64,000 nt of DNA from Actinomycetota bacterium. GTDB taxonomy: Bacteria > Actinomycetota > Acidimicrobiia > Acidimicrobiales > Ilumatobacteraceae. A model generated the notes under the pieces. That model had not been told where the DNA came from and made no database searches. It saw nothing but the letters and a program-made list of their open reading frames with translations. The DNA lies in contig JAUXQB010000278.1 of NCBI GenBank assembly GCA_030685215.1, positions 2,599 to 66,598 of the forward strand. Direction: 5' to 3'. Made by a program: the position numbers and the translations under genes. Shown in pieces: positions 3,387 to 30,443 of the stretch. Each line of letters opens with the position of its first letter. The stretch's first letter is position 1.

Positions 3387-3391
3387 GCAGC

Positions 3392-5496: not shown

Positions 5497-5510
5497 AAGA
5501 TCACCCACTC

Positions 5511-6272
5511 ATGGACAACGCGCTCGGCGAACCTCAGACCATCCTGCTGCTCGGCGGCAACAGCGACATCGGCCTCGCCATCGTGCGCGAGCTGCTCAGC
5601 CCGAACGCGCGCACGGTGGTGCTCGCGTGCCGCGACACGGGCAAGGGCGAGCAGGCAGCTGCCGGGCTGCGCCACGACCGGCTGGCAGTGCACGTGGTGC
5701 AGTTCGACGGCGCGGCCTCGAACACGCACGAAGCGCTGGTTCGCTCGATCGGCGAGCAGTACGGCGACATCGACCTCGCGATCATCGCGTTCGCGTTGCT
5801 CGGCGATGGCGAGGCCACGTCGAAGGATGTCGCCGCTGCCACCGAGGTGGCCGCGGTCAACTTCACCGGCGTGATGTCGGCCACCATCGCGGTGGCGAAC
5901 CGCATGCGCGTGCAGGGCCACGGTGCCATCGTGATGCTCAGCAGCGTGGCCGGCGAACGAGTGCGCGCGGCCAACGCCGTCTACGGCGCCACCAAGGCCG
6001 GCATCGACGGCTTCGCGCAGGGCCTCGGCGACGAACTCGCCGGCGAGGGGGTGCACATGCTGGTCGTGCGCCCGGGTTTCGTCCACTCGGCGATGACCGC
6101 CGGGCTGAAGGCCGCCCCGTTCGCCACCACGCCGGAGGCCGTCGCGGCTGCCACCGCGAAAGGCCTGCGTTCGAAGCGGCGCACGGTGTGGGCGCCGGGC
6201 ATCCTGCGCGTCGTGTTCATGACGCTGCGTCACGTGCCCGGCCCCATCTGGCGACGCCTGCCCCTCGGCTGA
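5511..6272 (+). CDS. dprE2: decaprenylphosphoryl-2-keto-ribose reductase (SDR)
   Basis: 'PQTILLLGGNSDIGLAI', 'IVMLSSVAGERVRAANAVYGATKAG' and 'VVRPGFV' are colinear with Rv3791. ATG 5511 is 15 nt after the dprE1 stop. Confidence 0.9.
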   Translation: MDNALGEPQTILLLGGNSDIGLAIVRELLSPNARTVVLACRDTGKGEQAAAGLRHDRLAVHVVQFDGAASNTHEALVRSIGEQYGDIDLAIIAFALLGDGEATSKDVAAATEVAAVNFTGVMSATIAVANRMRVQGHGAIVMLSSVAGERVRAANAVYGATKAGIDGFAQGLGDELAGEGVHMLVVRPGFVHSAMTAGLKAAPFATTPEAVAAATAKGLRSKRRTVWAPGILRVVFMTLRHVPGPIWRRLPLG

Positions 6273-8743: not shown

Positions 8744-8750
8744 GGCGGCG

Positions 8751-8756
8751 ACTCTA
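8751..8756 (-). promoter_or_regulatory. -10-like hexamer TAGAGT, 7 nt upstream of GTG 8743
   Basis: TANNNT motif read on the minus strand, at leaderless-type spacing. Confidence 0.4.
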
Positions 8757-8798
8757 GTGATCGAGGCGGCGATCCAACGGTCTCCCGGTTCTCTTCGA

Positions 8799-11320: not shown

Positions 11321-12361
11321 TCAGCCGGGCAGCAGGCGGGTGGCGGTCTTCAGCACTCGCAGCGCGCCTTGCTTGGCGATGGTGCGATGGTGGCTGCGGC
11401 CTTCGTCGGCGGTGCTCGCACGGTTCGCCAAGAACCAGTCGTAGCTGTCGGCCAGCATCTCCGCGTTGGAGTACTTCGGCGACCACCCGAGTGCATCGTG
11501 CACGTGCTGCGTGTCGAACCACAACGACTTGCTGTACATCAGCCAGTGGTACGGGGCGAACGGCGCGAGGTGCAGGCCGGCGGCCGCCTTCATGCCCAGC
11601 GCGGCCGGACCGGCGGGCAGCGAGCGCACCTTCGAGCCCGTGCCGGCATGCGCACACAGCGCTTCCAGCGACTCGCGCATGGTTCCGAAGCGGTCGGTGC
11701 CGGCGTTGAACACCGCGGGTCCGGGCGACGCGCCTGCGAGCACGCACACGTCGGCGAGATCGTCGGCGTGCACGAACTGGTAGCGGTTGCTGCCGTCGCC
11801 GAGCACGAAGATGTCGGCACCGTCGGCCACCCATTCGAACAGGATGCCGAAGATGCCGAGCCGGCCGTGGCCGAGAATGGTGCGTGGCCGCACGATCGTG
11901 ACATCGAGTCCGTTGCGCACCGCGTCGAGGCACGCCCATTCGGCGGCGAGCTTGGCGTGGCCGTAGGCCTCGACGGGGGAGGGGACGGTGGTGGGCAGCA
12001 CCGGATTGCTGCGCGGCACCCCGAACACCGCGCTGCTCGAGGTGTGCACCACCTTGCGCACGCCGGCGCGCAGGCACTCGGCCAGCAGCAGCGTGGTGCC
12101 GTCGACGTTGACGGTGCGCAGCAGCTCCTCGTCCTTGGCCAGCGGCACCTGCGCGACGTTGTTGAACACCACGTCGACGCCCTGCACCGCGCGGGCCACG
12201 ACCGCGGCGTCGCGGATGTCGCCCTGCACCAGTTCCACCCCGGCGGGGCGGTCGTCGACGTCGTTGAGGTCGAGCACGCGCACGGTGTGGCCGGCCGCGA
12301 CCAGCCGGTGGACGAGCAGCGAACCGAAGTAGCCGCTGCCGCCGGTGACGAGCGCGATCAC
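11321..12361 (-). CDS. NAD-dependent epimerase/dehydratase (SDR fold)
   Basis: GTG 12361 overlaps the upstream stop (GTGA). Motifs 'ALVTGGSGYFGSLLV', 'HTSSSAVFG', 'YGHAKLAAE' (YxxxK). The rest of track ORF 11321..12859 is out-of-frame overlap. Confidence 0.85.
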   Translation of the reverse strand: MIALVTGGSGYFGSLLVHRLVAAGHTVRVLDLNDVDDRPAGVELVQGDIRDAAVVARAVQGVDVVFNNVAQVPLAKDEELLRTVNVDGTTLLLAECLRAGVRKVVHTSSSAVFGVPRSNPVLPTTVPSPVEAYGHAKLAAEWACLDAVRNGLDVTIVRPRTILGHGRLGIFGILFEWVADGADIFVLGDGSNRYQFVHADDLADVCVLAGASPGPAVFNAGTDRFGTMRESLEALCAHAGTGSKVRSLPAGPAALGMKAAAGLHLAPFAPYHWLMYSKSLWFDTQHVHDALGWSPKYSNAEMLADSYDWFLANRASTADEGRSHHRTIAKQGALRVLKTATRLLPG

Positions 12362-13500
12362 AGTTCCAGCCCCTGGTCGAGGCACCAGCGGATGCTGCGA
12401 CGCATGCCCTCGTACAGCGCGACCTGCGGCACGTAGCCGATCTCGGCGGTGGAGCGGCTGATGTCGACCGCGATGGTGTGGCCCATCTCGCCGAGCACGT
12501 GCAGTTGCTGCTGGTACAGCCCCACGGCCTGCAGCACGCGATCGCCGGCCTCGGCCACGCGTGCGGCCAGTGTGGGCAGTCGGGTGGTGGGCGGCGTCAC
12601 CGAGAGGCCTTCGTCGGTGAGAGCACGACCGACGGTCTCGACGATCTCGTCGACGGTGTAGGCCCGCTCGTCGGCGATCCAGTAGCCCTTGCCGCGAGCA
12701 GCAGGCACCAGTTCGGCGCAGAAGACGCCGTCGACCAGGTTGTCGACGTAGACCATCGAGCGTCGCTGATCGCCCTTGCCGATGACGGGGAACTTGCCGG
12801 TGCGCACCATGCGGAAGAAGGTGGTCTGCCGCGGTGGCTGGAACGGGCCGTAGAACCACGGCGGCCGCACGATGGTGGCGTCGAGCCCCGCGGCCACCGC
12901 TTCGTCGACGGCCATCTCGGCCTGCATCTTCGATGCGCCGTAGCCGAGGTACGGGTGGAACGGCTCGTCGTGCCGGAACGTGTCGGCAGGGTCGGGGTTG
13001 GTGCCGAACGGGCTGTTCGACGAGACGTGCACGAACCTGCGCACGCCTGCGTCGCCGGCCGCCTGCGCGAGGTGGCGGGTGCCGTTGGTGTTGACCTCGT
13101 AGAACTGGCGCACGCGCGACGGATGGATGACGCCCGCGGTGTGGAGCACGTCGGTGTCGGTGGTGAGCCCGTACAACAGGCGCGCCGCGGTGTCGGCCTT
13201 GGCCACGTCGCCGATGACGATCTCCACGGCAGTGACGGCAGTGGCCCCTGCGGCGCGTTCGGCGGCGATGAACGCGCGCAGGTCTGCGGCCTCGGCGGTG
13301 CTGTGCGCGAGCAGTCGCAGCGCGCGTCGGTGGGGGTCGGCGAGCAGGCGGTGCACCAGCGCGCGACCGAGCCAGCCGGCGGCACCGGTGATCACGGTGG
13401 TGCCCGGTGGCGACCAGCGTTCGATGACCACCGGCGGCGGCGACGGCGATGTGGATGGTTCAGGCACGACGACCTCCAGTGGCGGCGAAACGTCGGGCAT
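12358..13500 (-). CDS. NAD-dependent epimerase/dehydratase (3-beta-HSD-like SDR)
   Basis: 'VITGAAGWLGRALV', 'HVSSNSPFG', 'YGASKMQAE'. ATG 13500 overlaps the GMC gene by 41 nt; an alternative GTG at 13467 would give an 8-nt overlap. Confidence 0.82.
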   Translation of the reverse strand: MPDVSPPLEVVVPEPSTSPSPPPVVIERWSPPGTTVITGAAGWLGRALVHRLLADPHRRALRLLAHSTAEAADLRAFIAAERAAGATAVTAVEIVIGDVAKADTAARLLYGLTTDTDVLHTAGVIHPSRVRQFYEVNTNGTRHLAQAAGDAGVRRFVHVSSNSPFGTNPDPADTFRHDEPFHPYLGYGASKMQAEMAVDEAVAAGLDATIVRPPWFYGPFQPPRQTTFFRMVRTGKFPVIGKGDQRRSMVYVDNLVDGVFCAELVPAARGKGYWIADERAYTVDEIVETVGRALTDEGLSVTPPTTRLPTLAARVAEAGDRVLQAVGLYQQQLHVLGEMGHTIAVDISRSTAEIGYVPQVALYEGMRRSIRWCLDQGLEL

Positions 13501-14926
13501 TGCGGATGGCGAACGCCATGACCGATGCCTGCGGGTTGACGCCGGGTGCCGTGGGCAGCAGCGAGGCGTCGTTGACGAAGATGTTGGTGCAACCGTGCAC
13601 GCGACCGAACGAGTCGGCGCCGGTGCGGCCCTCGAGTTCGCCCATCGGCACGGTGCTGCACAGGTGCACGGTCATCACGCTCGCCTTGGTGGCCGAGAAC
13701 GCCTGCTGCATGGTGGCCACGTCGCGACGGTTGCGCACCGACGGCGCGCCCTTGAACGACGGGTACACCTCGAGCGCGCCGGCCTCGAGCATCAAGAGAG
13801 CCAGCCGGGCGAGCCCGCTGCGCAGCAACGCGCGATCGCGCCAGGTGAGGCCATAGGTGACGATGGGGTCCTTCATGTGCGGGACGGATCGCACCTTGCC
13901 CAGACCCTCGCTGGTGATGGCCGCGTAGTAGACGCTCATCTGCTCCCACTGGGTGATGGCGTTGCGGAACGTGGGCCACTGGTCGAGCAGCGTGAGCGCC
14001 ACCAGCCCCGGGTTGCTGGCCGAGCCGCCGAACGACAGGTGTGGGGCGAACTCCTTCACCTGGTGCACGGGCACGTCGTCGGGCACGTTGAGCGAATCCG
14101 CGAACCGTGCGGCCAGTTTCACCGTCGGGTGCACGGCCAGCGAGCGGCCGATGTGGCCGTGGATGCCCGAGCGCTGCAGGAGCGCCGGTGACTGGATGGC
14201 GCCACCGCACACGAACACGTGACGGAAGGTGATGGTGCCCTTGCTGCCGTCGGCGAGGGTGGTGAGCGCCGACGCGGCGGTGCCGTGCCGGGTGACCAGC
14301 CGGTCGACGCGGCAGCCGACGGCGAGCCGGGCGCCGGCGCGCATGGCCCGCGGCAGGTAGGTGCGTGTCATCGACTGGCGCTGCCCGCCGGCCGCGTCGT
14401 CGGCGGACGGATAGCTCATCCACCGCGGGATCTCACCGTTGCGCCAACCGAGCTTGTCGGCACCACGCCGAAGCACTTCACTGGGCTCGGAGTACGCGCC
14501 GGGCGCCGTGCACACGCTGATGTCGCGCTCCACCTCGTCGGCGATGGCCAACAGGTCGGCCGGGTCGAAGTCGACGATCTGGAACTGGTCGCGCCAGCGT
14601 TCGAGCACGTCGCCCGGGGGACGCCAGTAGAGCCCGCTGTTCACTTCCGTGCCGCCGCCGGCACAACGGCCTTCCGTGTACGCGATGGACGGCAGGCCGA
14701 GTGCGACGGTGACGCCACCGGCTCGGTACTGGCGGTCCATCTGCTCGAGCGAGAACGGGACGACGGAGCCCTGCTCGACCCATTCGCCCTCCTCGACCAC
14801 CAGCACGTCGAAGCCGGCCTCGGCGAGCACCGACGCGGTGGTGGCGCCACCGGCTCCGCTGCCGATGACGAGCACCTCGGCATCCATCGCGACGGTGGCG
14901 CGCTGCACGGGCACGTCGGGTGGCAT
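13460..14926 (-). CDS. GMC-family FAD oxidoreductase
   Basis: 'VLVIGSGAGGATTASVLAEAGFDVLVVEEG' (FAD fold) and C-terminal 'HLCSTVPMG...NIFVNDASLLP' (GMC signature). ATG 14926, alternative 14887. The upstream part of track ORF 13460..16183 is rejected. Confidence 0.85.
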   Translation of the reverse strand: MPPDVPVQRATVAMDAEVLVIGSGAGGATTASVLAEAGFDVLVVEEGEWVEQGSVVPFSLEQMDRQYRAGGVTVALGLPSIAYTEGRCAGGGTEVNSGLYWRPPGDVLERWRDQFQIVDFDPADLLAIADEVERDISVCTAPGAYSEPSEVLRRGADKLGWRNGEIPRWMSYPSADDAAGGQRQSMTRTYLPRAMRAGARLAVGCRVDRLVTRHGTAASALTTLADGSKGTITFRHVFVCGGAIQSPALLQRSGIHGHIGRSLAVHPTVKLAARFADSLNVPDDVPVHQVKEFAPHLSFGGSASNPGLVALTLLDQWPTFRNAITQWEQMSVYYAAITSEGLGKVRSVPHMKDPIVTYGLTWRDRALLRSGLARLALLMLEAGALEVYPSFKGAPSVRNRRDVATMQQAFSATKASVMTVHLCSTVPMGELEGRTGADSFGRVHGCTNIFVNDASLLPTAPGVNPQASVMAFAIRNARRFAATGGRRA

Positions 14927-14928
14927 GC

Positions 14929-15267
14929 TCACGTCGATGCTCCGGTGGGAGTGGTGGAGGGCCAGTGCTCCCACACGTACGCGAAGCTCAGCGAGCGGAT
15001 CAGCCGCGGGTATTCCGCCACCAGTGGGAGCGGCAGCTTCATCAGCACCGAGACCGCGGTCCAGCCGCCCGGCACGGCGAGCAGCGTGCGGAACACCGAC
15101 CCCAGCACGAGCACACCGAAGCGGGTGAAGCTGGGGAGCGTGTCGATGCGATGCGCGACGAAGCCGACCGTCTCGTTGCGCTTCGCCGTCGGCAGGTCGG
15201 GAAGATCGGTGGCCAGCAGCCGCTGAGCGAACGAACCGACGACGGGAAGAGCGGGCACCTGGGGCAT
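14929..15267 (-). CDS. small hydrophobic protein of unknown function, coupled to the GMC oxidoreductase
   Basis: 112 aa with two or three hydrophobic stretches ('FGVLVLGSVFRTLLAV', 'AVSVLMKLPLPLV'). Its stop lies 2 nt before the GMC ATG, and a -10 hexamer lies upstream. Confidence 0.5.
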   Translation of the reverse strand: MPQVPALPVVGSFAQRLLATDLPDLPTAKRNETVGFVAHRIDTLPSFTRFGVLVLGSVFRTLLAVPGGWTAVSVLMKLPLPLVAEYPRLIRSLSFAYVWEHWPSTTPTGAST

Positions 15268-15277
15268 GAGCGCCTGA

Positions 15278-15283
15278 ATCGTA
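15278..15283 (-). promoter_or_regulatory. -10-like hexamer TACGAT, 10 nt upstream of ATG 15267
   Basis: TANNNT on the minus strand, in the divergent intergenic region. Confidence 0.4.
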
Positions 15284-15362
15284 CCCGTGGAGGTGCGCTG
15301 AGCGGGGCTTGGTGCACGCGAGTCGGACGGGTGGTTGCCAGGGGCCGCGACGTCCCGCGAGA

Positions 15363-15368
15363 TAGCAT
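15363..15368 (+). promoter_or_regulatory. -10-like hexamer TAGCAT, 8 nt upstream of GTG 15377
   Basis: TANNNT in the divergent intergenic region. Confidence 0.4.
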
Positions 15369-15376
15369 CGCCGCCC

Positions 15377-16114
15377 GTGCGTGCTGTCGTCGTCATTCCC
15401 ACCTACAACGAGCGTGAGAACGTCGTGGCGATGCTGCAGGCACTCCGCAGCCAGGTGCCCGCCGCGCACGTGATGATCGTCGACGACCTCAGTCCCGACG
15501 GCACCGGCGGGCTCGCCGACGAGGCGGCCGCCGAGCTGGGACAGGTGACGGTGGTGCACCGCAGCGGCAAGCCGGGGTTGGGTGCGGCCTATCGCCACGG
15601 CTTCCAACTCGCCTTCGACGAGGGCTTCGACGCCATCGTGTCGATGGACAGCGACTTCTCGCACGATCCCGCGGTCGTGCCGACGATGTTGCGCCTCCTC
15701 GAGGAGGGCGCCGACGTGGTCATCGGCAGCCGCTACGTGGCGGGCGGTGGCACGCAGGACTGGCCGTTGCGCCGGCGGCTGCTCTCCAAGTGGGGCAACC
15801 GCTACGCCAGCGCGTTGCTGGGCGCCAAGGTGCGCGACTGCACGGCCGGCTTCCGTGCCTACCGGGCCGAGACGCTGCGGGCCATCGAGCCCGGCAGCAC
15901 CGCCGCCGAGGGCTACGCGTTCCTCACCGAGCTCACCCGCCGACTGGCTCGCAGCGGCGCCACCATCGTCGAGACGCCCATCATGTTCAAGGACCGCGAG
16001 AAGGGCACGAGCAAGATGTCGGGGCGCATCATCGTCGAGTCGATGCTGCTCGTCACCGGGTGGGGCGTGCTCGACCGAGCGCGCAGCCTGCGCCGGCGAC
16101 TCACTCGCCGATGA
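15377..16114 (+). CDS. polyprenol-phosphate hexose synthase, GT2 (Ppm1/DPM1-like)
   Basis: 'VVIPTYNEREN', 'VDDLSPDGT', 'SMDSDFSHDP', 'VIGSRY', 'KDREKGTSKMS' form the classic DPM1/Ppm1 catalytic domain. GTG 15377 is preferred; the track start is 15335. Confidence 0.85.
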   Translation: MRAVVVIPTYNERENVVAMLQALRSQVPAAHVMIVDDLSPDGTGGLADEAAAELGQVTVVHRSGKPGLGAAYRHGFQLAFDEGFDAIVSMDSDFSHDPAVVPTMLRLLEEGADVVIGSRYVAGGGTQDWPLRRRLLSKWGNRYASALLGAKVRDCTAGFRAYRAETLRAIEPGSTAAEGYAFLTELTRRLARSGATIVETPIMFKDREKGTSKMSGRIIVESMLLVTGWGVLDRARSLRRRLTRR

Positions 16115-17916
16115 GCACACGCCGGCTCGTCTGGGCACTGCGCGCCGCGATCGCGGTGCCGTACGTGATCGCGCTCGTCGCACTGAGCACCACCGACTGG
16201 TACCCGGTGCTCGACCTGGCGATGACCGAGTTGCGGGTGCGCGACGTGTTCGGCTCGCACACGCCGCTCATCGGCCTGCCGGGTCGCATCGGCACGTTCC
16301 CCGACCAGGGAAGTCACCCCGGCCCGCTGAGCTTCTACCTGGTGGCACCGATCTACCGGCTGTTCGGCAGCTCGGCCCACGGGATGCTGGTCGCCGCGGC
16401 GGTCATCAACGTGGGTGCCGCCTCGGCGGCGTTGTGGGCGGCCGGTCGCCGCGGCGGCCCGCGCCTGCTGGTGGGCATCACGGCGGTGCTGATGGCGCTG
16501 ATGGCCTGGCTCGGCGCCAGCGTCCTGACACAGCCGTGGAACCCATATCTGCCGCTGGTGAGCTTCGTGGTCGTGCTGCTCTGCACGTGGGGTGTGCTCG
16601 ACGGCGATCACGTGCTGCTGGTGCCGCTGGTGGCGTTCTCCACGCTCTGCGCGCAGACCCACGTGCCGTACCTGGCGCTGTGCGTGGTGCTGTGCGTGCT
16701 GGCGTTCGGCGCAGTGCTGGCTCGCTGGTGGACCGCGCGGGCCGTTGCGGCCGCCGAACGCCGTTCGGTGCTGATCGCGGTCGGTGTCGGCGCGCTGCTG
16801 TGGCTGCCGGTGCTGGTCGACGAGGTGCGCCGCACGCCGGGCAACGTCACGATGTTGCGTCGCCACTTCCTCTCCCCGCCGGAGGAGCCGGTGGGCTTCG
16901 CGGTGGGCCTGAAGACCGTGCTGGCCCACTTCGATCTCACGCACGTGGTCGGCAGCCTGGCCACGCGTTCTGGTGACGAGATCGAGCACCTCGACGCGCT
17001 CGCCGGCGGTCGATGGGTGATCGGCCTGCTCGTGCTGCTGGTGTGGGCGGCCGCCGCGCTGTCCTCGCGGCGCCTCGCCGACCGTCGCATCGTGCGTCTG
17101 CACCTGGTGGTCGCGGTGGGCACGGTCGTCGCGTTCGTCTCGACCGGCCGCATCTTCGGCAAGGTCTGGTACTACCTCACGCTGTGGTCCTGGTCGCTGG
17201 CCCTGCTCGCCGTGGCCGCCACGCTGTGGACCGCGTTGGCGTGGTGGGAGCGGCCGGAGCGGTCGGACCGGCGCGCCTTGCCGGTGGTGCGGGTGGCGGC
17301 GGGCATCGTCGCGGTGGCCGCCGTCGTGTTCGTCGTCGACGCTGCCACCGTGGATCCACCGGAGGACCGGCTCTCGCGTGTGCTCGGCGAGGTGGTCGGC
17401 CCCACGGCCGACGCGCTGCGCGAGGGCGTCGGCGCGGCCGACGGCGACGACGGCGTGTACGCGGTCTACTGGGAAGATGCGTACTACTTCGGTTCGCAGG
17501 GCTTCGGGTTGATCAACGAGCTCGAGCGGCGCGGCTTCGATGCTCGGGCGTACGACACGTATCGCGTGCCGATCACCCATCACCGCATCGCGCAGCCGTC
17601 GGAGGTGACGGCCGAAGTGGTGCTGGCCACCGGGGTGAACGTGGAGGTCTGGCGTGCGAAGCCCGGTGTGGTGGAGGTGGCCGTGTTCGAGCCGCGCTCG
17701 GCCGAGGAGATGGCCGAGTTCGACCAGCTGTACGCCGAGGCCGTCGAGGCGTTGCGTGCCGACGGGCTCGACGATCTGGTGCCGTTGCTCGACACCAACA
17801 TGTTCCTGGCGCGGCTGGACCCGCGACTGTCCGACGATGTGGAGGCCACGCTCACCACCCTGCTGATGCTCGGCCAGGAGACGGCAGTCTTCGTCGCTCC
17901 TCCCGGATCGTTCTAG
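16111..17916 (+). CDS. uncharacterised multi-pass membrane protein, paralog A of three (candidate GT-C glycosyltransferase)
   Basis: ATG 16111 overlaps the GT2 stop (ATGA). 601 aa. Motifs shared with paralogs B and C: 'WYPVLDLAMTELRVRDV', 'SHPGPLSFYL', 'QPWNPYLPL', 'CAQTHVPY'. About 190-aa soluble C-terminal domain. Confidence 0.6.
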   Translation: MSTRRLVWALRAAIAVPYVIALVALSTTDWYPVLDLAMTELRVRDVFGSHTPLIGLPGRIGTFPDQGSHPGPLSFYLVAPIYRLFGSSAHGMLVAAAVINVGAASAALWAAGRRGGPRLLVGITAVLMALMAWLGASVLTQPWNPYLPLVSFVVVLLCTWGVLDGDHVLLVPLVAFSTLCAQTHVPYLALCVVLCVLAFGAVLARWWTARAVAAAERRSVLIAVGVGALLWLPVLVDEVRRTPGNVTMLRRHFLSPPEEPVGFAVGLKTVLAHFDLTHVVGSLATRSGDEIEHLDALAGGRWVIGLLVLLVWAAAALSSRRLADRRIVRLHLVVAVGTVVAFVSTGRIFGKVWYYLTLWSWSLALLAVAATLWTALAWWERPERSDRRALPVVRVAAGIVAVAAVVFVVDAATVDPPEDRLSRVLGEVVGPTADALREGVGAADGDDGVYAVYWEDAYYFGSQGFGLINELERRGFDARAYDTYRVPITHHRIAQPSEVTAEVVLATGVNVEVWRAKPGVVEVAVFEPRSAEEMAEFDQLYAEAVEALRADGLDDLVPLLDTNMFLARLDPRLSDDVEATLTTLLMLGQETAVFVAPPGSF

Positions 17917-17918
17917 TG

Positions 17919-19790
17919 ATGACGCGCAGGTGGCGGCCGGGCTTCGAGTGGCTGGCTGTCGTGCCGCTCGTGATCGCTGCCGTACGTGCGCTGGTGACGA
18001 GATGGATCCCCGTGGGGGAGAACGCGCTCATGTCGCTGCGGGCCCGCGACGTGCTCACCGAACACCATCCGTGGTTGGGCACTGCGTCGTCGGGGTCGCT
18101 CACGTCGGGCACCACCGTCAGCCATCCGGGGCCGCTGCTGTTCGATCTGTTCGCACTGCCGGTGCGACTGCTGGGGCCCGGTGCCGGGCTGGTGATCGGC
18201 GCACTGCTGCTGCACTCGGCGGCCGTGCTGGTGGCCGGTGCGGCGGCGCGCCGTGCGGGCGGCGAGCGGCTCGTCGTGATCGTCACGCTCGCGTTCATCG
18301 CGCTGCAGTGGACGTTGGGTCCACAGTTGATGCTCGACCCGTGGAACCCGCACATCGTGCTGATGCCGTTCCTCGCGTTCCTCGTCTGCCTCGTCGCGGT
18401 GGCGGTGGGACACTCGCGCCTGCTCTGGCCGGCGGTGTGCTTCGGTTCACTGGTGCTGCAGACGCATGTCAGCTACGTGCTGCTGGTGCCGCTGCTCGCG
18501 CTCGGCGCCACGGGCGCCTGCTGGTGGCACGCCCGAACCGGTGGCATCGTGCGCCGTGACTGGGCGACGGCAGGGGGAGTGTTCGCGCTGCTGTGGGCGC
18601 AGCCGGTGTGGCAGCAGTTGTTCGGGCCCGGCCCGGGCAACCTGGGGTTGTTGCTGCGCAGTGGCGACAGCGAGGGTCGCGTCGGGGTGCGGCTCGGGTC
18701 GCGGTTGGTGGCCGAGGTCGTGGCTGCGCCCCCGTGGTGGGCTCGACCGTCGTTCGACCGGTCGGTGAGCGACATGCCCGTGCTCGACGCCGATGGCGGC
18801 CGGCTGCCCACTGCCGAGTGGCTCATCGGCGGCGCGATGGCGGCGCTGCTGCTGGTCGCCCTCGCTGCACTGCTGGTCGCGCTCGCCGTCACGGCGCATC
18901 GCCGCGGCGAACGGGTCGCGGTCGCGATGCTGGCCATCGCGCTGGGCGGCGTGTGCCTGGCGGTGGTCACCACGGCCATCATCCCGGCGGCCGGCTACGG
19001 CATCGCGCCGCACCAGTTGCGGTGGCTGTGGCCGCTGTCGATCTGGTGGATGGTGGCGGTGGCCTACACGGCCGTGCAACTGCTGCCGTCGGTGGCCGAT
19101 GGCATCGTGCGCGCTCGTTGGCTCGCGCCCGGCATGGCAGTGGCCGGCGTTGCGTTGTGCATCCCGTCGTACGTGGTGCCGGTGGGCGTGGCGCGCGCAC
19201 CGGGGTCGATGGACTCGGTGCGCTCCATTGTCGAGCAGATGGACGGAGTCGAGATCCCGCCGGCGGTGTTCGAGCCGTCGGGCATGTGGATCGGCGAGCC
19301 GTACAGCGTGCCGATGATCGCGGCGCTGCTGGCCGACGACCAGCCGGTGCTCGTGGCGCCCGATGCCGCCGCGCAGTACGGACGCGGCCGGGTGGCAGGA
19401 CCGGATGTGGCGTGGCGGCTGTCGTTGCGCCAGGGAGCGGAGGCGCTGGTCTGTGCCGATGCCGACCGTCTGGCGCTCGACACGCCGCTCGCCGACGAGC
19501 AGGTCGCCGACTACCGAGCACTGCAGCAGCAGGTGCTCGATCTGGTGGTCGGCCTCGCCGCCACCGACGCGACGCTGCAGGCGGAGATCGATGGGCTCGG
19601 CCGACCGCTGGTCGAGTCGCTCGCCGACGGCTCGCTGACCGCAGCCGTGCTCGAATCGACCGCGGCGCTGAGCGACGACGACCTCGCCCTGCTCGCCGCG
19701 TTCGACGTGCAACGCACGGCGCTGGGCATCGACACTGTTGCCGCGTTCGTGCGGCCGCTCGACGGCCTCTACGGGCAGGGCTGCGACTGA
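17919..19790 (+). CDS. uncharacterised multi-pass membrane protein, paralog B (candidate GT-C glycosyltransferase)
   Basis: ATG 17919 (or GTG 17916) lies 2 nt after the paralog A stop. Motifs 'WIPVGENALMSLRARDV', 'SHPGPLLFDL', 'DPWNPHIVL', 'VLQTHVSY'. 623 aa. Confidence 0.6.
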   Translation: MTRRWRPGFEWLAVVPLVIAAVRALVTRWIPVGENALMSLRARDVLTEHHPWLGTASSGSLTSGTTVSHPGPLLFDLFALPVRLLGPGAGLVIGALLLHSAAVLVAGAAARRAGGERLVVIVTLAFIALQWTLGPQLMLDPWNPHIVLMPFLAFLVCLVAVAVGHSRLLWPAVCFGSLVLQTHVSYVLLVPLLALGATGACWWHARTGGIVRRDWATAGGVFALLWAQPVWQQLFGPGPGNLGLLLRSGDSEGRVGVRLGSRLVAEVVAAPPWWARPSFDRSVSDMPVLDADGGRLPTAEWLIGGAMAALLLVALAALLVALAVTAHRRGERVAVAMLAIALGGVCLAVVTTAIIPAAGYGIAPHQLRWLWPLSIWWMVAVAYTAVQLLPSVADGIVRARWLAPGMAVAGVALCIPSYVVPVGVARAPGSMDSVRSIVEQMDGVEIPPAVFEPSGMWIGEPYSVPMIAALLADDQPVLVAPDAAAQYGRGRVAGPDVAWRLSLRQGAEALVCADADRLALDTPLADEQVADYRALQQQVLDLVVGLAATDATLQAEIDGLGRPLVESLADGSLTAAVLESTAALSDDDLALLAAFDVQRTALGIDTVAAFVRPLDGLYGQGCD

Positions 19791-21706
19791 TCGCTGAACA
19801 GCGCGTACGCGGTGTTCAGGAAGGTGTCGACCACCGGGAAGACGCTCGTCAGATCGTCGGGTGACTGCACCTCGCCGCCCGCGTACCAGCGACTGAGGTA
19901 GCCCTCGTAGACGATGGTGCGAGCGGCGTCGAGGTCGCCCTGCTGGGCGAGCCTGAGCACCGGCTCGATGGCGGCGTCGGCATCGCGCAGCACGCTGTCG
20001 GCGACGACGATCTCGCCGCCTGCGACCTGCTCGGAGAGCTGCTCGGCGCGCTCGCGTGCAACTCCTTCCTCGCTCTCGCTGAGCTCGCTGGCGAGCGCCA
20101 CCAGGCATGCAGGCCCGTCGTACAGCACGGCCGGCGCGCCCTGCAGCTGGAAGATGGTGGCCGGCTCGGTGCCGTCGGCTCGGCGCGACGGACCGAGCTG
20201 GCGGATCATGATCTCGTCGGTGACGCGGAACTCGATACCGAGCTCCTGCAGCTGCATCATCACCGTCGAGCTGTACGGCTCGAACGGCCGCACGTTGCTC
20301 ACGTCGTACAGCACCGGTTGCACGGCGGCGAGTTGGTCGAGGTGTGGCAGCACCCGGCGCAGCGTGCTCATCGACGAGTAGAAGGCCACCGGGCCCTGTG
20401 GTTGTGCGTGGTACGGCACCGCCGCGATGGCGAGCACTGCGGCCACACCGACGGGCGCCCACTGCAGCGCAGCGAGCGCGCGCCCGGCGAGGCGAACGGC
20501 CACGTGGTGCACGAGCGTGGCGACGAGCGCGACGTGCACGAACACGGCCAGCGGCCACAGGAACCGCACGTGGTGCGCGGCCAGGCCGACAGGACCGACG
20601 GTGAGCCTGCTGATCGCGAGCACGCTGCCGACGACGCCCGCGGTGGCCATCAGGCACGCGTTGCCGAGCAGGTGCGTGTCGCGCCGGCGGTGATGGGTGG
20701 CGAGCGCGACGAGCAGCCCGACGAGCACCAGCAACGACAGCGCGGCGAGCGCGGTGTTGGGAAGCCCCGGGATGACGAGCGCCGGCTCGCCGCTCGGACC
20801 GACGGTGAGCGGTGTGTTGGGCACCGAGGTGGAGAACCCGCTGCGGAACCACCACGGTGGCAGCGTGAACACGTTGGCGCTGATGCCGGTGGCCGAGCGC
20901 ATGCCCACCTGCAACGAGCCCCCGCCGGCGTTGCCGAGCAGGCGGCTGAGGTTGCCCTTGCCGGGACCGAACAACTGCTCGTAGAAGGTCTGGCTCCAGA
21001 TGAGCGCGAGCGCGACGAACGACACGATGGCCGGGCGCGAGCGGATGGCGTCTCGCCACGGGAGGTGTGGCCGCCGACGCCGCTCCAGCCAGTAGCTGAC
21101 CGCTGCCACCGGGCACAGCACGGCGAGGATGTACGCGTAGCTGATGTGGGTGTGCACGAGCAGCGACACCATCGCCAGCGACCACGGGATGCACCACGTC
21201 TGGCCGTCGGTGACACCCACCAGCAGCACCAGCAGCAGCAGGAACGGCAGCAGCAGCGAATGCGCCTGCCAGATGTCGAACAGCATCTCGCTGCCCATCG
21301 ACCAGCTCAGCCCGGCAGCGGCCAGCAGCGCCCACCGCTCTGCAGCCCAGCCGCCCAGGCGTCGGGCGACCGCGACGATGCCGATGATGGCGAGCACGTT
21401 GAGCACGCCGACGCCGACTGCTGCACCGGGTCCGGGCCCGAACACCTTCGCGAACGGTGCCACCAGGTCGGCGTAGATGGGGCCGGGGTTGTTCATGTTC
21501 TCGCCGACGCTGAGCGACGCCGAGGTCCACGACCCCAGCCACGGGTGGTGCGCCGTGGCCACGTCGGCCACGCGGATGTAGAGCAGCGCGTTGTCGCCGA
21601 TGGGGAACCAGTCGTGGTGCAGCGCCCGGATCACGGCCACCACGATGGGCAGCACGGTGAGCGCGACGAGCGAACGCCGCAGCCACTTCGGGGCGTCGGA
21701 GGTCAC
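19769..21706 (-). CDS. uncharacterised multi-pass membrane protein, paralog C (candidate GT-C glycosyltransferase)
   Basis: GTG 21706 overlaps the upstream stop (GTGA). Motifs 'WFPIGDNALLYIRVADV', 'NNPGPIYADL', 'LVHTHISY'. 645 aa. Its 3' end overlaps paralog B by 22 nt. Confidence 0.6.
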   Translation of the reverse strand: MTSDAPKWLRRSLVALTVLPIVVAVIRALHHDWFPIGDNALLYIRVADVATAHHPWLGSWTSASLSVGENMNNPGPIYADLVAPFAKVFGPGPGAAVGVGVLNVLAIIGIVAVARRLGGWAAERWALLAAAGLSWSMGSEMLFDIWQAHSLLLPFLLLLVLLVGVTDGQTWCIPWSLAMVSLLVHTHISYAYILAVLCPVAAVSYWLERRRRPHLPWRDAIRSRPAIVSFVALALIWSQTFYEQLFGPGKGNLSRLLGNAGGGSLQVGMRSATGISANVFTLPPWWFRSGFSTSVPNTPLTVGPSGEPALVIPGLPNTALAALSLLVLVGLLVALATHHRRRDTHLLGNACLMATAGVVGSVLAISRLTVGPVGLAAHHVRFLWPLAVFVHVALVATLVHHVAVRLAGRALAALQWAPVGVAAVLAIAAVPYHAQPQGPVAFYSSMSTLRRVLPHLDQLAAVQPVLYDVSNVRPFEPYSSTVMMQLQELGIEFRVTDEIMIRQLGPSRRADGTEPATIFQLQGAPAVLYDGPACLVALASELSESEEGVARERAEQLSEQVAGGEIVVADSVLRDADAAIEPVLRLAQQGDLDAARTIVYEGYLSRWYAGGEVQSPDDLTSVFPVVDTFLNTAYALFSDQSQPCP

Positions 21707-22599
21707 GACGCGCCGGAGCCCTTCACCGTGCTGGCGGAGGTGTGCGAGAAGCCGGAGAACAGCACCAGGAATCCGATGAAGGTGGTGACGAACGCGACGC
21801 CGCTGCCGATGAGGAGCGCGAGGCCGACCGTCCCGGCGTGTGATGCGATGGTGGCGGTGGCGACGAGCGTGAGCACCGTGGCGAACGCGACGAAGGTGGC
21901 AGCGGCAGCGACGAGCATGCGTGCCGCGATGCGCTCGGAGAACGGCAACAGCATGCGGATGCCGTGTGCGATGAGCGACGAGGTGTTCATCCGGCTGCGC
22001 CCGGCGAACCGGTGGCCGCGAGCGCACGGCACTGTGGTGGTGGCGCGACGCAGCGCGAGCAGCGTGCTCGAGTAGCAGAGGTCGAAGCTGGGGTGGTGCA
22101 CGGTGGCCTTCAACGAGTCGGCCCGCTGGGCGGCGAAGTTGCCCGACAACACGGTGATGCCGGCGATGAGCCGGAAGAAGATGCGGAACATCACGTACAG
22201 CACACGGAACAGCAACGGTTCCGACCGTTTCGTGCGCTCGGCGAGCACGAGGGCGCTGCCGGTGTCGCGCAGCGCGGCCAGCAACCGTGGCACGTCGGCC
22301 GGCTGGTCCTCGCCGTCGGAGTCCATGGTGATGACCACGTCGGTGTCGGCCAACGATGGCGCGAGGTGCCGCAGGCCGTGGACGATGGCGCGCTGGTGGC
22401 CCATGTTGAACGGGGGAGTGAGCACCGTCACGTCGGGCAGGGCATGGAGCTGCACGACCTCCGGGTCGGTGCCCGCGGAGTCGTCGACCACCAGGAACTG
22501 CAGCGGCCCGTGCTCGGCGGCGAGCGCCTCGCGCACTTCGGTGTGCAGTCGCAGGAACGACACCGTGTCGTGCAGCATCGGGCTCACGATCCAGATCAC
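21703..22599 (-). CDS. GtrB-type GT2, polyisoprenyl-phosphate glycosyltransferase
   Basis: GTG 22599 overlaps the upstream stop (GTGA). Motifs 'VVDDSAGTD', 'TMDSDGEDQP', 'LAERTKRSEP', plus two C-terminal TM helices as in bactoprenol glucosyltransferases. Confidence 0.78.
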   Translation of the reverse strand: MIWIVSPMLHDTVSFLRLHTEVREALAAEHGPLQFLVVDDSAGTDPEVVQLHALPDVTVLTPPFNMGHQRAIVHGLRHLAPSLADTDVVITMDSDGEDQPADVPRLLAALRDTGSALVLAERTKRSEPLLFRVLYVMFRIFFRLIAGITVLSGNFAAQRADSLKATVHHPSFDLCYSSTLLALRRATTTVPCARGHRFAGRSRMNTSSLIAHGIRMLLPFSERIAARMLVAAAATFVAFATVLTLVATATIASHAGTVGLALLIGSGVAFVTTFIGFLVLFSGFSHTSASTVKGSGAS

Positions 22600-29098: not shown

Positions 29099-29669
29099 TC
29101 GACGCGGTCGCCGACACGTCGTCGCGTTGCGGCGTGGGGGTGCGGCGCTGGCTCACGAACACGGTGAACAGGAACAGCACGACGCCGATGATCTCCAGCA
29201 CCGAGACGATGCGCACGCCACCGATGTCGCGCCGGTAGAGCAACGTGTCGACGTGGTGCAGCGACACGAGGCGGATGGCGGCGAAGCAGACCAGGCCGGA
29301 GAGCACCACTGCGGCGGGAAGGTAACGTCGCCGGCGTTCCGGCACACGCCAGATGGCCACGATCACGGCGATGCCCCAGACGGCGGCGACGGTGCCGACC
29401 ACCGCCGCCTGCAGCCCGCGACGCGTCTGGTACCAGCCTTCTTCGCGGGCGGTGCGACGGCCGAGATCCGACAGCAGGTCGCCGAGCCCGACGCGGCCGA
29501 CGGCCAGAACGAGCAGCAGCGCGGCGGACAGCAGCCAGAACAGCGGCCACAGATCGCGCCGTTCCTCACGGCGCTGCACACGCTCGCGCCACCAGACCGG
29601 GAGGCACACGATGCACGCGAACAGGTACGCCAGGACGCGAACAGCATTCGAGTCGAGGATCTCCGCCAT
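29091..29669 (-). CDS. hypothetical integral membrane protein (~5 TM)
   Basis: ATG 29669. 192 aa of alternating hydrophobic stretches and Arg-rich loops. I recognise no family. The 3' end overlaps the convergent AT3 gene by 8 nt. Confidence 0.5.
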   Translation of the reverse strand: MAEILDSNAVRVLAYLFACIVCLPVWWRERVQRREERRDLWPLFWLLSAALLLVLAVGRVGLGDLLSDLGRRTAREEGWYQTRRGLQAAVVGTVAAVWGIAVIVAIWRVPERRRRYLPAAVVLSGLVCFAAIRLVSLHHVDTLLYRRDIGGVRIVSVLEIIGVVLFLFTVFVSQRRTPTPQRDDVSATASIT

Positions 29670-30435: not shown

Positions 30436-30443
30436 GGGCGGGG

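What the first reader, a model, noticed from the sequence alone, without database searches (positions are those of the whole stretch)
16111..21706. Three adjacent paralogs of an unnamed ~600-aa membrane-protein family (possible new GT-C family)
Genes A (16111-17916), B (17919-19790) and C (19769-21706, opposite strand) share colinear motifs. The motifs are W-[YIF]-P-[VI]-x-[DE]-x-A-[ML]-x-x-[LI]-R-x-x-D-V in the first loop, 'PGP' about 25 residues later, 'PWNP' (A and B) and 'THxxY'. Each also has a divergent ~190-aa soluble C-terminal domain.

A conserved acidic residue in the first extracytoplasmic loop is the GT-C hallmark. Each paralog sits directly downstream of a polyprenyl-phosphate-sugar synthase GT2. 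I do not recognise the family as Emb, AftA-D, PMT, PIG-V or ArnT.
Basis: partly seen in the sequence, partly recalled or inferred. Interest (0 to 1): 0.75.

Follow-up and report, generated by a model that had tools for sequence, protein, structure and literature searches.

The report
Undescribed GT-C glycosyltransferase family, three paralogs
Three neighbouring genes encode membrane enzymes of an unnamed family that most likely attach lipid-carried sugars to a cell-envelope polysaccharide on the outside of the membrane, in a poorly studied group of actinobacteria (Acidimicrobiia) whose genomes also carry the mycobacterial-type arabinose-donor pathway.

Summary
Genes A (16111-17916, +), B (17919-19790, +) and C (19769-21706, -) are intact paralogous genes.

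An AlphaFold2 model of B (pLDDT 92) matches only GT-C glycosyltransferases with high Foldseek probability: ArnT, ALG9/12, AglB/PglB/STT3, DPY19, AftA and EmbA/B. Transporters score a probability of about 0.1. Charge statistics put loop 1 and its two conserved acidic residues outside the cell.

No Pfam, NCBIfam or PDB sequence model recognises the family, and NCBI calls these proteins "hypothetical". The family is nevertheless large, with about 6,500 clusters at 50% identity. Every relative with a credible label comes from Acidimicrobiia-type Actinomycetota.

New points:
- The family splits into two old subfamilies, A-type and B/C-type.
- At least two copies were present in all 50 long loci examined, usually as an A-type gene followed directly by a B/C-type gene.
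- The neighbours are usually a DPMS/ArnC-like GT2, a GMC-oxidoreductase/SDR module, other remote GT-C genes, AftD, and UbiA-DprE1-DprE2.
- The C-terminal domain has no structural match in the PDB.

The donor sugar, the acceptor and the activity are inferred, not shown. I rate this a new family within a known superfamily, of moderate interest.

The parts
16111..17916 (+). Gene A, 601 aa. Type-1 (A-type) member of the unnamed GT-C family. Identical to MDP2293078.1, 'hypothetical protein'.
   Evidence: Open ORF; correct GC3 phase; exact match in NCBI. Falls in cluster 1 of 164 family proteins. Weak PF10131 PTPS_related hit, E=0.019, which recurs in 7 of 44 A-type relatives.
17919..19790 (+). Gene B, 623 aa. 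Type-2 (B/C-type) member. This is the protein that was modelled.
   Evidence: AF2 pLDDT 92.4. Foldseek top hits are all GT-C.
19769..21706 (-). Gene C, 645 aa. Type-2 member, convergent with B; the 3' ends overlap by 22 nt. Identical to MDP2293080.1.
16198..16248 (+). Loop-1 motif of A (W30..V46), with D35, R42 and D45.
   Evidence: Sequence; at least 97% conserved in both subfamilies; predicted extracytoplasmic.
18003..18053 (+). Loop-1 motif of B (W29..V45), with E34, R41 and D44. It lies in the helix at residues 34-43 that follows TM1.
21560..21610 (-). Loop-1 motif of C (W33..V49), with D38, R45 and D48.
17362..17913 (+). C-terminal extracytoplasmic domain of A (residues 418-601).
   Evidence: Hydropathy. 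Aligned with the B/C-type domain in the global profile comparison (574 columns). R492 conserved.
19191..19787 (+). C-terminal extracytoplasmic alpha/beta domain of B (residues 425-623). No structural relative found in the PDB.
   Evidence: AF2 of the domain alone, pLDDT 91.1. Best Foldseek match E=0.06, probability 0.14. E460, P461, Q486, G488 and R491 are invariant or nearly so.
19772..20413 (-). C-terminal extracytoplasmic domain of C (residues 432-645).
15335..16114 (+). GT2, 259 aa, polyprenyl-phosphate sugar synthase type. Its stop codon overlaps the start of A (ATGA).
   Evidence: Pfam GT2 E=1e-30. Best PDB hit is Dol-P-Man synthase 5mlz (E=2e-32), then ArnC. NCBIfam nearest models are AglJ, Dol-P-hexose transferase, PpgS and ArnC, all below cutoff. 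Junction.
21703..22455 (-). Second, more divergent GT2 (about 250 aa; start uncertain). Its stop overlaps the start of C (GTGA).
   Evidence: Pfam GT2 E=1e-13. Weak NCBIfam hits to PpgS, PgfS and ArnC. No PDB sequence hit. Junction.
11321..15402 (-). Conserved neighbouring module: SDR epimerase/dehydratase (11321-12385), SDR (12358-13500), GMC oxidoreductase (13460-14974) and a 157-aa protein (14929-15402). ORF limits are generous.
   Evidence: Pfam and NCBIfam. GMC is present in 41 of 50 related loci and SDR in 39 of 50.
2379..6272 (+). Polyprenyl-phospho-arabinose donor pathway: decaprenyl-phosphate phosphoribosyltransferase (2379-3386), a methyltransferase (3209-4135), DprE1 (4132-5496) and DprE2 (ORF 5415-6272; real start near 5510).
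   Evidence: NCBIfam equivalog scores above the curated cutoffs: 329.7 vs 207, 608.6 vs 500, 304.7 vs 250. Pfam.
6914..8770 (-). 'GTCx': another membrane protein of about 600 aa with no Pfam match. Remote GT-C, and the only sequence-level bridge between the A/B/C family and PMT_2-type GT-C.
   Evidence: hhalign gives 80.8% (E=1e-5, 335 colinear columns) to type 2 and 85.7% to PMT_2-type. Present in 40 of 50 loci. Not a BLAST-level paralog of A.
34197..38591 (-). AftD-type GT-C arabinofuranosyltransferase homolog (1464 aa), within the same glycan cluster.
   Evidence: PF11847 GT-C_AftD, E=5e-82, 276 bits. Found within 10 kb of the family in 19 of 50 loci.

Best explanation
A, B and C are integral-membrane GT-C-fold glycosyltransferases of a family that no library I searched describes.

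Architecture. Each protein has its N-terminus in the cytoplasm and about 11 transmembrane helices. The first outside loop is long and carries a short helix with a conserved D/E-x6-R-x2-D-V motif. A C-terminal alpha/beta domain of about 190 aa lies outside the membrane.

Proposed mechanism (inferred).
1. On the cytoplasmic face, the translationally coupled DPMS/ArnC-like GT2 loads a sugar from a nucleotide sugar onto polyprenyl phosphate.
2. The lipid-linked sugar is flipped to the outer face. The flippase has not been identified.
3. On the outer face, the GT-C enzymes transfer the sugar to a cell-envelope glycan. This is probably the arabinan-type polymer made with the UbiA-DprE1-DprE2-AftD genes of the same 38-kb cluster.
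4. The loop-1 acidic residues (A D35/D45, B E34/D44, C D38/D48) serve as catalytic base or metal/acceptor ligands.
5. The conserved R, H and W-x-P residues of outer loops 1-3 bind the donor phosphate-sugar.
6. The C-terminal domain, with its conserved Arg, holds the acceptor.

A-type and B/C-type enzymes are ancient sister subfamilies that almost always occur as an adjacent pair. They either perform two successive or different transfers, or they work as a heterodimer.

What is shown: the genes, the paralogy, the conservation, the fold, the topology and the synteny. What is inferred: activity, donor, acceptor and pairing.
For: Fold.
- AF2 model of B: pLDDT 92.4, pTM 0.93.
- All Foldseek PDB hits with probability 0.9 or more are GT-C enzymes. 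The best is ArnT 5ezm, E=6e-5.
- The secondary-structure order is TM1, then a loop with short helices, then a TM bundle, which is the GT-C core layout.

Topology.
- 15.3 K+R per protein in the putative inner short loops against 1.5 in the outer ones, averaged over 164 proteins.

Conservation.
- All residues at least 90% conserved in both subfamilies lie in outer loops or in the outer C-terminal domain, apart from R113/112/116 in the TM2-TM3 cytoplasmic loop.

Weak sequence signals pointing to GT-C.
- 7 of 44 A-type members hit PF10131 (best E=5.5e-5).
- Scattered sub-threshold hits to DUF2142, GT87, PMT_2 and PMT.
- One JGI pipeline named a 59%-identical relative 'ArnT-like glycosyltransferase'.
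- hhalign type 2 vs GTCx gives 80.8%, and GTCx vs PMT_2-type gives 85.7%.

Donor context.
- The GT2 at 15335-16114 is closest to Dol-P-Man synthase (E=2e-32) and ArnC.
- Start/stop overlaps couple GT2 to A and the second GT2 to C.
- A GT2 lies within 10 kb in 42 of 50 related loci, and it is the commonest immediate neighbour (29 of 49).

Cluster context.
- Equivalog-level DPPR synthase, DprE1 and DprE2.
- AftD, two PMT_2 GT-C genes, acyltransferases and methyltransferases.

Pairing.
- At least two family copies are present in all 50 long loci.
- An A-type gene is followed directly by a B/C-type gene in 38 of 49.

Precedent.
- GT136 was founded in 2024 on a GT-C enzyme that had no sequence similarity to existing families (PMC11127046).
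Against: - There are no biochemical or genetic data for any family member.
- Foldseek global TM-scores are only 0.32-0.37, with large rmsd. The call therefore rests on the 3Di-based probability and on the consistency of the hit list.
- Sequence profiles find nothing among PDB chains.
- Direct hhalign to the window's PMT_2-type family (14-19%) is no better than the acyltransferase-3 negative control (16%).
- I could not superpose residues, so I did not verify that E34/D44 sit where the catalytic Asp of ArnT or PglB sits.
- 7-8 of 50 loci have no detectable GT2 within 10 kb, so the GT2 product is not proven to be the donor.
- No flippase gene was identified in the window.
Confidence: 0.6

Rival explanations
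1. Same fold and same side of the membrane, but a different donor. A, B and C would be arabinofuranosyltransferases that use polyprenyl-phospho-arabinose made by the UbiA-DprE1-DprE2 genes of the cluster. They would stand in for the missing Emb/AftA/AftB/AftC functions. The adjacent GT2 genes would then serve other GT-C enzymes of the cluster.
For: - The donor pathway is present at equivalog level 10 kb upstream.
- AftD is the only recognisable arabinosyltransferase in the window, so further Araf transferases are needed if an arabinan is made.
- Foldseek lists AftA and EmbA/B among the matches.
- 7-8 of 50 loci have the family but no GT2 nearby.
- DprE1/DprE2 lie in the same syntenic block in many loci.
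Against: - The tightest and most frequent linkage is to a GT2, with translational coupling.
- DprE1/DprE2 are instead immediately adjacent to a different remote GT-C, GTCx.
- No sequence similarity to Emb or Aft families was found.
Confidence: 0.22
2. GT-C-like membrane proteins with a different chemistry. They could be a glycan polymerase or ligase acting on polyprenyl-diphosphate-linked oligosaccharides (Wzy/WaaL/OST-like). Alternatively, one subfamily could be a non-catalytic partner or scaffold of the other.
For: - Foldseek also lists AglB, PglB and STT3, and WaaL at probability 0.82.
- One A-type relative gives a weak Wzy_C hit, E=0.006.
- Obligate pairing of two subfamilies would fit a catalytic subunit plus an accessory subunit.
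Against: - Both subfamilies keep the same loop-1 acidic residues and outer-loop motifs at 96% or more, so neither looks degenerate.
- WaaL, FtsW and RodA matches have low TM-scores of about 0.2.
- The genomic partner is a monophosphate-sugar synthase type GT2. No Wzx, initiating phosphoglycosyltransferase or similar gene was seen in the cluster.
Confidence: 0.1
3. Not an enzyme: a transporter, flippase or other membrane protein whose resemblance to GT-C is only a generic helical-bundle match.
For: - Global TM-scores to GT-C structures are low, 0.32-0.37.
- Profile searches of PDB sequences find nothing meaningful.
- No flippase was otherwise identified in the cluster.
Against: - Every high-probability Foldseek hit is a GT-C enzyme. 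MFS and other transporters have probability 0.2 or less and TM-score about 0.1.
- Strict conservation is concentrated in outer loops rather than within the helices.
- Recurrent weak Pfam hits fall in GT-C families.
Confidence: 0.04

Closest known systems
ArnT (GT83; undecaprenyl-phosphate-L-Ara4N:lipid A transferase; PDB 5ezm)
   Same: It is the best structural match (Foldseek E=6e-5, probability 1.00). It has a multi-span GT-C core with the active site expected at the outer membrane face. It is partnered genetically with a GT2 that makes the polyprenyl-P-sugar (ArnC), and the window's GT2 also hits ArnC. One pipeline has named an A-type relative 'ArnT-like'.
   Different: Sequence identity is 13% and there is no HMM-level similarity. 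I predict about 11 TM helices rather than the 13 I recall for ArnT. The C-terminal alpha/beta domain of about 190 aa has no PDB fold match. The conserved motif set is different (D/E-x6-R-x2-DV, PGP, WxP, THxxY). The family occurs as type-1/type-2 pairs.
Three-component extracytoplasmic glycosylation systems: GtrA/GtrB/GtrC, CsbB/GtcA/YfhO, and the pentofuranose systems with GT136 (PMC11127046)
   Same: The logic is the same: a cytoplasmic synthase makes a polyprenyl-P-sugar and a GT-C enzyme transfers the sugar to a glycan outside the membrane. The GT-C has 11 TM helices, an extra domain after the last TM helix, and a catalytic Asp just after TM1. GT136 likewise had no sequence similarity to existing families.
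   Different: No flippase gene (GtrA/SMR/MATE type) was found next to A, B or C. The C-terminal domain is alpha/beta, not a beta-rich CBM. Two conserved paralogous GT-C enzymes accompany one synthase. I did not test membership of GT136 directly, because no GT136 sequence was at hand.
Mycobacterial arabinan GT-C enzymes (EmbA/B/C GT53, AftA GT85, AftB GT89, AftC GT87, AftD)
   Same: They are actinobacterial. They are encoded in a cluster with DPPR synthase, DprE1, DprE2 and AftD. AftA and EmbA/B are among the fold matches. The EmbA-EmbB and Pmt1-Pmt2 heterodimers offer a precedent for paired paralogs.
   Different: No Pfam or profile similarity to Arabinose_trans, AftA or GT-C_AftD. The proteins are much smaller than Emb or AftD and have no CBM. 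The closest genomic partner is a hexose-type GT2, not the DPA genes.
PF10131 PTPS_related and PF13231 PMT_2 (Pfam GT-C clan; clan membership recalled from memory)
   Same: There are recurrent sub-threshold hits over the TM2-TM7 region (A residues 71-233 against profile positions 5-167). There is a transitive profile link through the neighbouring GTCx protein.
   Different: Scores are below the gathering threshold in every member tested (best 5.5e-5; A scores 13.9 bits against a cutoff of 26.4). Direct hhalign to PMT_2-type proteins is at the level of the negative control.

Membership tests
GT-C glycosyltransferase superfamily (fold level) | Polytopic membrane protein with about 8-13 TM helices | tested here: met
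   The AF2 secondary structure gives about 11 TM helices in B. Hydropathy is similar in A and C.
GT-C glycosyltransferase superfamily (fold level) | Structural similarity of the TM core to solved GT-C enzymes | tested here: met
   Foldseek probability 0.9-1.0 to ArnT, ALG9/12, AglB, PglB, STT3, DPY19, AftA and EmbA/B; best E=6e-5. Non-GT-C hits have probability 0.2 or less. Caveat: global TM-scores are only 0.32-0.37.
GT-C glycosyltransferase superfamily (fold level) | Long first extracytoplasmic loop after TM1, carrying short helices and conserved acidic residue(s) | tested here: met
   The loop spans residues 27-72 of B, with helices at 34-43 and 59-63. D/E34 and D44 are 96-99% conserved in both subfamilies. 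Outside orientation follows from the positive-inside rule.
GT-C glycosyltransferase superfamily (fold level) | Loop-1 acidic residue positioned at the donor/acceptor site, equivalent to the catalytic Asp of ArnT, PglB or PMT | not testable with these tools
   Neither model coordinates nor residue-level superpositions are returned by the tools.
GT-C glycosyltransferase superfamily (fold level) | Transfer from a lipid-phosphate-linked sugar donor | not testable with these tools
   Only context is available: translationally coupled DPMS/ArnC-like GT2 genes and the DPA pathway in the cluster.
ArnT / PMT_2 (GT83, GT39-like; PF13231, PF02366) | Match to the family HMM at the gathering threshold | tested here: not met
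   No hit in A, B or C even at E<=1. Single sub-threshold hits occur in 1 of 68 and 1 of 44 relatives. hhalign to the window's PMT_2 family gives 14-19%, equal to the negative control.
Emb / AftA / AftD / GT87 (AftC, PimE) / PIG-V | Match to PF04602, PF12250, PF11847, PF09594 or PF04188 | tested here: not met
   None in A, B or C. One GT87 hit at E=0.006 among 68 relatives. hhalign to the AftD GT-C domain gives 2% or less.
PF10131 PTPS_related | Match at the gathering threshold (26.4 bits) | tested here: not met
   A scores 13.9 bits, E=0.019. 7 of 44 A-type relatives hit below threshold, best E=5.5e-5. B and C have no hit.
GT136 (Citrobacter ORF12 type) | Sequence similarity to the founding member; beta-rich CBM after TM11 | tested here: inconclusive
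   Sequence similarity was not tested, because no GT136 sequence was available. The C-terminal domain here is alpha/beta with a helical subdomain, unlike the beta-rich domain described in PMC11127046.
NCBIfam named protein families | Any curated model hit | tested here: not met
   No meaningful hit for A, B or C. NCBI's own name for A and C is 'hypothetical protein'.

The most novel reading that the evidence does not exclude
A-type and B/C-type proteins form an obligate heteromeric GT-C enzyme, as EmbA-EmbB and Pmt1-Pmt2 do. This enzyme would be the main polymerase or brancher of an Acidimicrobiia-specific cell-wall polysaccharide built from lipid-linked sugars. It would replace the Emb/AftA-C set, and would use a donor tailored by the adjacent GMC-oxidoreductase/SDR module, which would act as a second DprE1/DprE2-like epimerisation system. 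This would define both a new CAZy GT-C family with a new acceptor-binding domain and a previously unknown envelope polymer in an abundant environmental clade.
Probability: 0.15. Interest if true: 0.7.

Novelty: new variant of a known kind. Interest (0 to 1): 0.45.

Why it matters
Acidimicrobiia are abundant in fresh water, sea water and soil, yet I found no paper dealing with the chemistry of their envelope glycans.

This locus shows that they carry the mycobacterial-type polyprenyl-phospho-arabinose pathway and AftD. Alongside these sits a set of GT-C enzymes that no current library names. The family studied here is the most conserved of that set and is always present in multiple copies.

If the prediction holds, several things follow.
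- It would add a new GT-C (CAZy) family with an extracytoplasmic domain that has no match among solved structures.
- It would give about 6,500 "hypothetical protein" clusters a testable function.
- It would help reconstruct how arabinan-type cell walls evolved in Actinomycetota outside the Mycobacteriales.

This is not a new principle. The three-component, lipid-linked-sugar logic is well established.

Tried and rejected
1. Sequence searches of PDB chains with B alone, with the 68-sequence profile and with the 44-sequence A-type profile gave only chance hits, such as opioid-receptor TM segments at E about 0.1 and a de novo designed helix bundle.

2. Pfam and NCBIfam gave nothing at threshold for A, B or C.

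3. I asked whether the two other membrane proteins of about 620 aa in the cluster were a fourth and fifth paralog (23345-25222 and 6914-8770). BLASTP says no. Profile comparison shows they are separate remote GT-C lineages.

4. I modelled the C-terminal domain on its own and searched the PDB, hoping to find a CBM or an OST-like domain. No match was found.

5. My first hhalign run was accidentally in global mode. I repeated it in local mode and rely mainly on that run. From the global run I use only the observation that the A-type against B/C-type alignment extends into the C-terminal domain.

6. Direct hhalign of the family against PMT_2-type, PIG-V-like and AftD GT-C domains gave 0.3-19%. This does not exceed the acyltransferase-3 negative control (16%), so I do not claim a direct sequence link.

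7. The large profile search returned only its top 150 hits, all of them close relatives, and without taxonomy. It gave the family size but not its outer limits.

8. A literature search for 'GT-C' together with 'Acidimicrobiia' found nothing.

9. I looked for a GtrA-like flippase next to the genes and found none. The small ORF at 14929-15402 has no family hit, and the membrane ORF at 29091-29837 was not analysed further.

Full report
**1. What is in the sequence**

The window has about 70% G+C. At the stated coordinates there are three uninterrupted ORFs of 601, 623 and 645 codons.

A position-specific GC plot shows the pattern expected of real genes in such a genome. Third-position GC is about 0.9, in the right phase and on the right strand, across each ORF. 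The phase switches fall at the proposed gene boundaries.

A and C are identical, end to end, to NCBI proteins MDP2293078.1 and MDP2293080.1. These come from an "Actinomycetota bacterium" metagenome-assembled genome and are both annotated "hypothetical protein". A 100% identical 623-aa copy of B is in the protein collection.

The gene junctions are as follows.
- The stop codon of the upstream GT2 overlaps the start of A (ATGA, 16111-16114).
- B starts 2 nt after the stop of A.
- B and C converge, and their 3' ends overlap by 22 nt.
- The stop of a second GT2 overlaps the start of C (GTGA, 21703-21706).

**2. Paralogy and motifs**

BLASTP gives these values.
- A-B: 40% identity over 257 aa, E=1e-28.
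- B-C: 30% over 581 aa, E=8e-56.
- A-C: 30% over 204 aa, E=2e-11.

I extracted 161 further family proteins from 79 related genomic loci and clustered them with A, B and C. They fall cleanly into two subfamilies.
- Type 1, A-like: 75 sequences, mean identity 45%.
- Type 2, B- and C-like: 89 sequences, mean identity 38%.
- Identity between the two types is 23%.

The two types are homologous over almost their whole length. The local profile alignment gives probability 100%, E=7e-62 over 521 columns. The global alignment runs to the C-terminus.

Twenty-two alignment columns are at least 90% conserved within each subfamily, and 18 of them carry the same residue in both. In A/B/C numbering these 18 are:
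- D35/E34/D38
- R42/41/45
- D45/44/48 and the following V
- P52/51/55 and G55/54/58
- the PGP motif
- R113/112/116
- G135/134/138
- W143/142/146 and P145/144 (Ala in C itself)
- H184/183/187
- W231/226/237
- N245/241/252
- G262/256/268
- R492/491/508, in the C-terminal domain

The window holds one type-1 gene and two type-2 genes.

**3. Fold**

Pfam, NCBIfam and searches of PDB sequences recognise nothing at threshold.

AlphaFold2 with a 68-sequence alignment gives a confident model of B, with pLDDT 92.4 and pTM 0.93.

Foldseek against the PDB returns ArnT (5ezm) first, at E=6e-5 and probability 1.00. It is followed by ALG12, AglB, ALG9, STT3, DPY19, PglB, AftA, EmbA/B and Pmt1/2, most at probability 0.9 or more. 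The interspersed MFS and SV2A transporters have probability 0.2 or less and TM-scores of about 0.1.

The global TM-scores to GT-C structures are modest, at 0.32-0.37. I therefore treat the fold assignment as strong but not absolute.

Weak sequence signals agree with the fold assignment.
- 7 of 44 A-type relatives hit PF10131 below threshold.
- Isolated relatives hit DUF2142, GT87, PMT_2 and PMT.
- A JGI pipeline named one relative "ArnT-like".
- Type 2 aligns colinearly with the neighbouring "GTCx" family (80.8%, E=1e-5, 335 columns). GTCx in turn aligns with the window's PMT_2-type family at 85.7%.

Direct comparison with PMT_2-type proteins does not beat a negative control. I do not claim membership of any named GT-C family.

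**4. Topology**

I took the helices from the AF2 model and averaged charges over 164 proteins.
- The N-terminus and the short loops between TM2/3, TM4/5, TM6/7, TM8/9 and TM10/11 carry 15.3 Lys+Arg per protein.
- The short loops on the other side (EL2, EL3, EL5) carry 1.5.

This places the N-terminus inside the cell. Loop 1 with its acidic motif, the WxP loop, the THxxY loop, the long loop 4 and the C-terminal domain are all outside.

**5. C-terminal domain**

Modelled alone, the domain (residues 425-623 of B) is confident, with pLDDT 91.1. It consists of a small alpha/beta sheet and a helical subdomain. It has no significant structural match in the PDB; the best hit has E=0.06 and probability 0.14.

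It is not a beta-sandwich CBM of the kind seen in Emb, AftD or GT136. It carries the motifs EP(Y/F) and RQxGxxR in type 2. The last Arg of RQxGxxR is also conserved in type 1.

**6. Genomic context**

The three genes sit in a glycan-biosynthesis cluster of about 38 kb (roughly 1.9-39.8 kb). In order, it contains:
- a HAD phosphatase
- decaprenyl-phosphate phosphoribosyltransferase, DprE1 and DprE2, all three above NCBIfam equivalog cutoffs
- a remote GT-C, here called GTCx
- a GT4
- two SDR epimerase/dehydratases, a GMC oxidoreductase and a small protein
- GT2, then A, then B
- C and its GT2, on the opposite strand
- a methyltransferase
- another remote GT-C (23345-25222; 98% to PMT_2-type by hhalign)
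- two acyltransferase-3 genes
- a GT2-methyltransferase fusion and another GT2
- a PMT_2 GT-C
- an 873-aa membrane protein with a spermine-synthase-like domain
- AftD
- a PMT_2/PIG-V-like GT-C

The GT2 upstream of A is closest to archaeal Dol-P-Man synthase (E=2e-32) and to ArnC. All the GT2 genes in the cluster lean towards polyprenyl-phosphate sugar synthases in NCBIfam, below cutoff.

**7. Distribution and synteny**

A profile search of 1.84 billion representative proteins finds 6,540 clusters at E<=1e-3 and 2,775 at E<=1e-30.

Named relatives are all "hypothetical", and those with a taxon label come from Acidimicrobiia-type Actinomycetota.

A pattern-seeded scan of GTDB species genomes returned 79 loci. 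The labels include Ilumatobacteraceae, Acidimicrobiales, Iamia, Microthrixaceae and strain IMCC26256. Many are only generic (Actinomycetota, Actinomycetes or "uncultured bacterium"), and three are evidently mislabelled bins. Because the scan was seeded with one peptide pattern, it cannot exclude more distant members in other taxa.

In the 50 loci of at least 15 kb:
- The family is always present in two or more copies (2 copies in 37 loci, 3 in 11, 4 in 2).
- An A-type gene is followed immediately by a B/C-type gene on the same strand in 38 of 49.
- A GT2 is within 10 kb in 42 and is the commonest immediate neighbour (29 of 49). Seven or eight loci have none.
- GMC is present in 41, GTCx in 40 and SDR in 39.
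- AftD is present in 19, DprE1/DprE2 in 12 and UbiA in 7. These three counts are limited by the 10-kb flank.

**8. Mechanism**

The best-supported reading is the classical lipid-linked route.
1. A cytoplasmic GT2 charges polyprenyl phosphate with a sugar.
2. The product is flipped to the outer face.
3. The GT-C enzymes transfer the sugar to a growing or finished envelope glycan at the outer face.

In this reading the loop-1 acidic residues act in catalysis, the outer-loop R, H and W residues hold the donor, and the new C-terminal domain holds the acceptor.

The steps that are shown are fold, topology, conservation and linkage. Activity, donor, acceptor and the meaning of the type-1/type-2 pairing are inferred.

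The main rival keeps the same enzymology but makes polyprenyl-phospho-arabinose the donor. Less likely rivals are a polymerase or ligase acting on diphosphate-linked glycans, or a catalytic-plus-accessory pair. A transporter is unlikely.

**9. Comparison with known systems and novelty**

In how it works, the system resembles two things. One is ArnC/ArnT and the Gtr-type and pentofuranose three-component systems (PMC11127046). The other is the mycobacterial arabinan machinery whose donor genes share the cluster.

In membership, it passes every testable fold-level criterion of the GT-C superfamily. It fails the HMM criteria of ArnT/PMT_2, PMT, Emb, AftA, AftD, GT87, PIG-V and PF10131. GT136 could not be tested by sequence.

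I therefore file it as a previously undescribed family within a known superfamily, with three distinctive features: its own motif set, a C-terminal domain without a structural match, and a conserved two-subfamily tandem.

AftD homologs in Ilumatobacter have been noted before (bioRxiv 10.1101/2019.12.22.885152). I found no paper dealing with GT-C enzymes in Acidimicrobiia.

**10. Verdict**

Interest is moderate (0.45). This is a solid, testable functional prediction for a large family of "hypothetical" proteins, and it gives a view into the envelope of an abundant but little-studied clade. The principle, however, is well known, and specialists expect further divergent GT-C families to turn up.

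Noticed in passing
window 11321-15402 (- strand): A module of two SDR epimerase/dehydratase-type genes, a GMC (FAD) oxidoreductase and a 157-aa protein with no family hit lies beside the GT2-A-B operon. It is conserved next to the family in about 40 of 50 Acidimicrobiia loci. An FAD oxidase plus NAD(P) reductases is formally the same chemistry as DprE1/DprE2, so this may be a second epimerisation system for a lipid-linked sugar.
   Followed up: partly
window 6914-8770 (-) and 23345-25222 (-): These are two further membrane proteins of about 620 aa without Pfam or NCBIfam hits at threshold. By profile-profile comparison they are remote GT-C enzymes: GTCx scores 86% to the PMT_2 type, and the 625-aa protein scores 98%. 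They are separate lineages, not paralogs of A, B and C.
   Followed up: partly
window 2379-6272 (+) and 34197-38591 (-): A complete polyprenyl-phospho-arabinose donor pathway is present in a non-mycobacterial, Acidimicrobiia-type genome: DPPR synthase, DprE1 and DprE2, all above NCBIfam equivalog cutoffs, plus an AftD homolog. No Emb, AftA or GT87 (AftC-type) Pfam hit was found among the genes scanned in the window, and nothing was recognised as AftB.
   Followed up: partly
window 31571-34192 (+): An 873-aa predicted protein inside the glycan cluster whose only hit is a spermine/spermidine-synthase-like domain at residues 362-490. Its role is unknown.
   Followed up: no
window 26367-27842 (-): A single 491-aa gene fuses a polyprenyl-P-sugar-synthase-like GT2 domain to a class-I SAM methyltransferase domain. 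The same architecture recurs in a related locus (L002, 10040-11539).
   Followed up: no
L009, L031, L052 (GTDB genome contigs): Contigs that carry this Acidimicrobiia-type locus are labelled Bifidobacterium breve, Bifidobacterium sp. and Bordetella parapertussis MAGs. These bins are probably mislabelled or contaminated.
   Followed up: no
window 44000-48100: G+C drops to about 0.65 over an ABC peptide/oligopeptide transporter operon (two permeases and an SBP_bac_5 binding protein). The remainder of the window (41-64 kb) is ordinary metabolism and is unrelated to the glycan cluster.
   Followed up: partly
window 29091-29837 (-): A small multi-span membrane ORF lies directly downstream of the GT2 at 29713-30447. 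It could be a lipid-linked-sugar flippase. It was not analysed.
   Followed up: no
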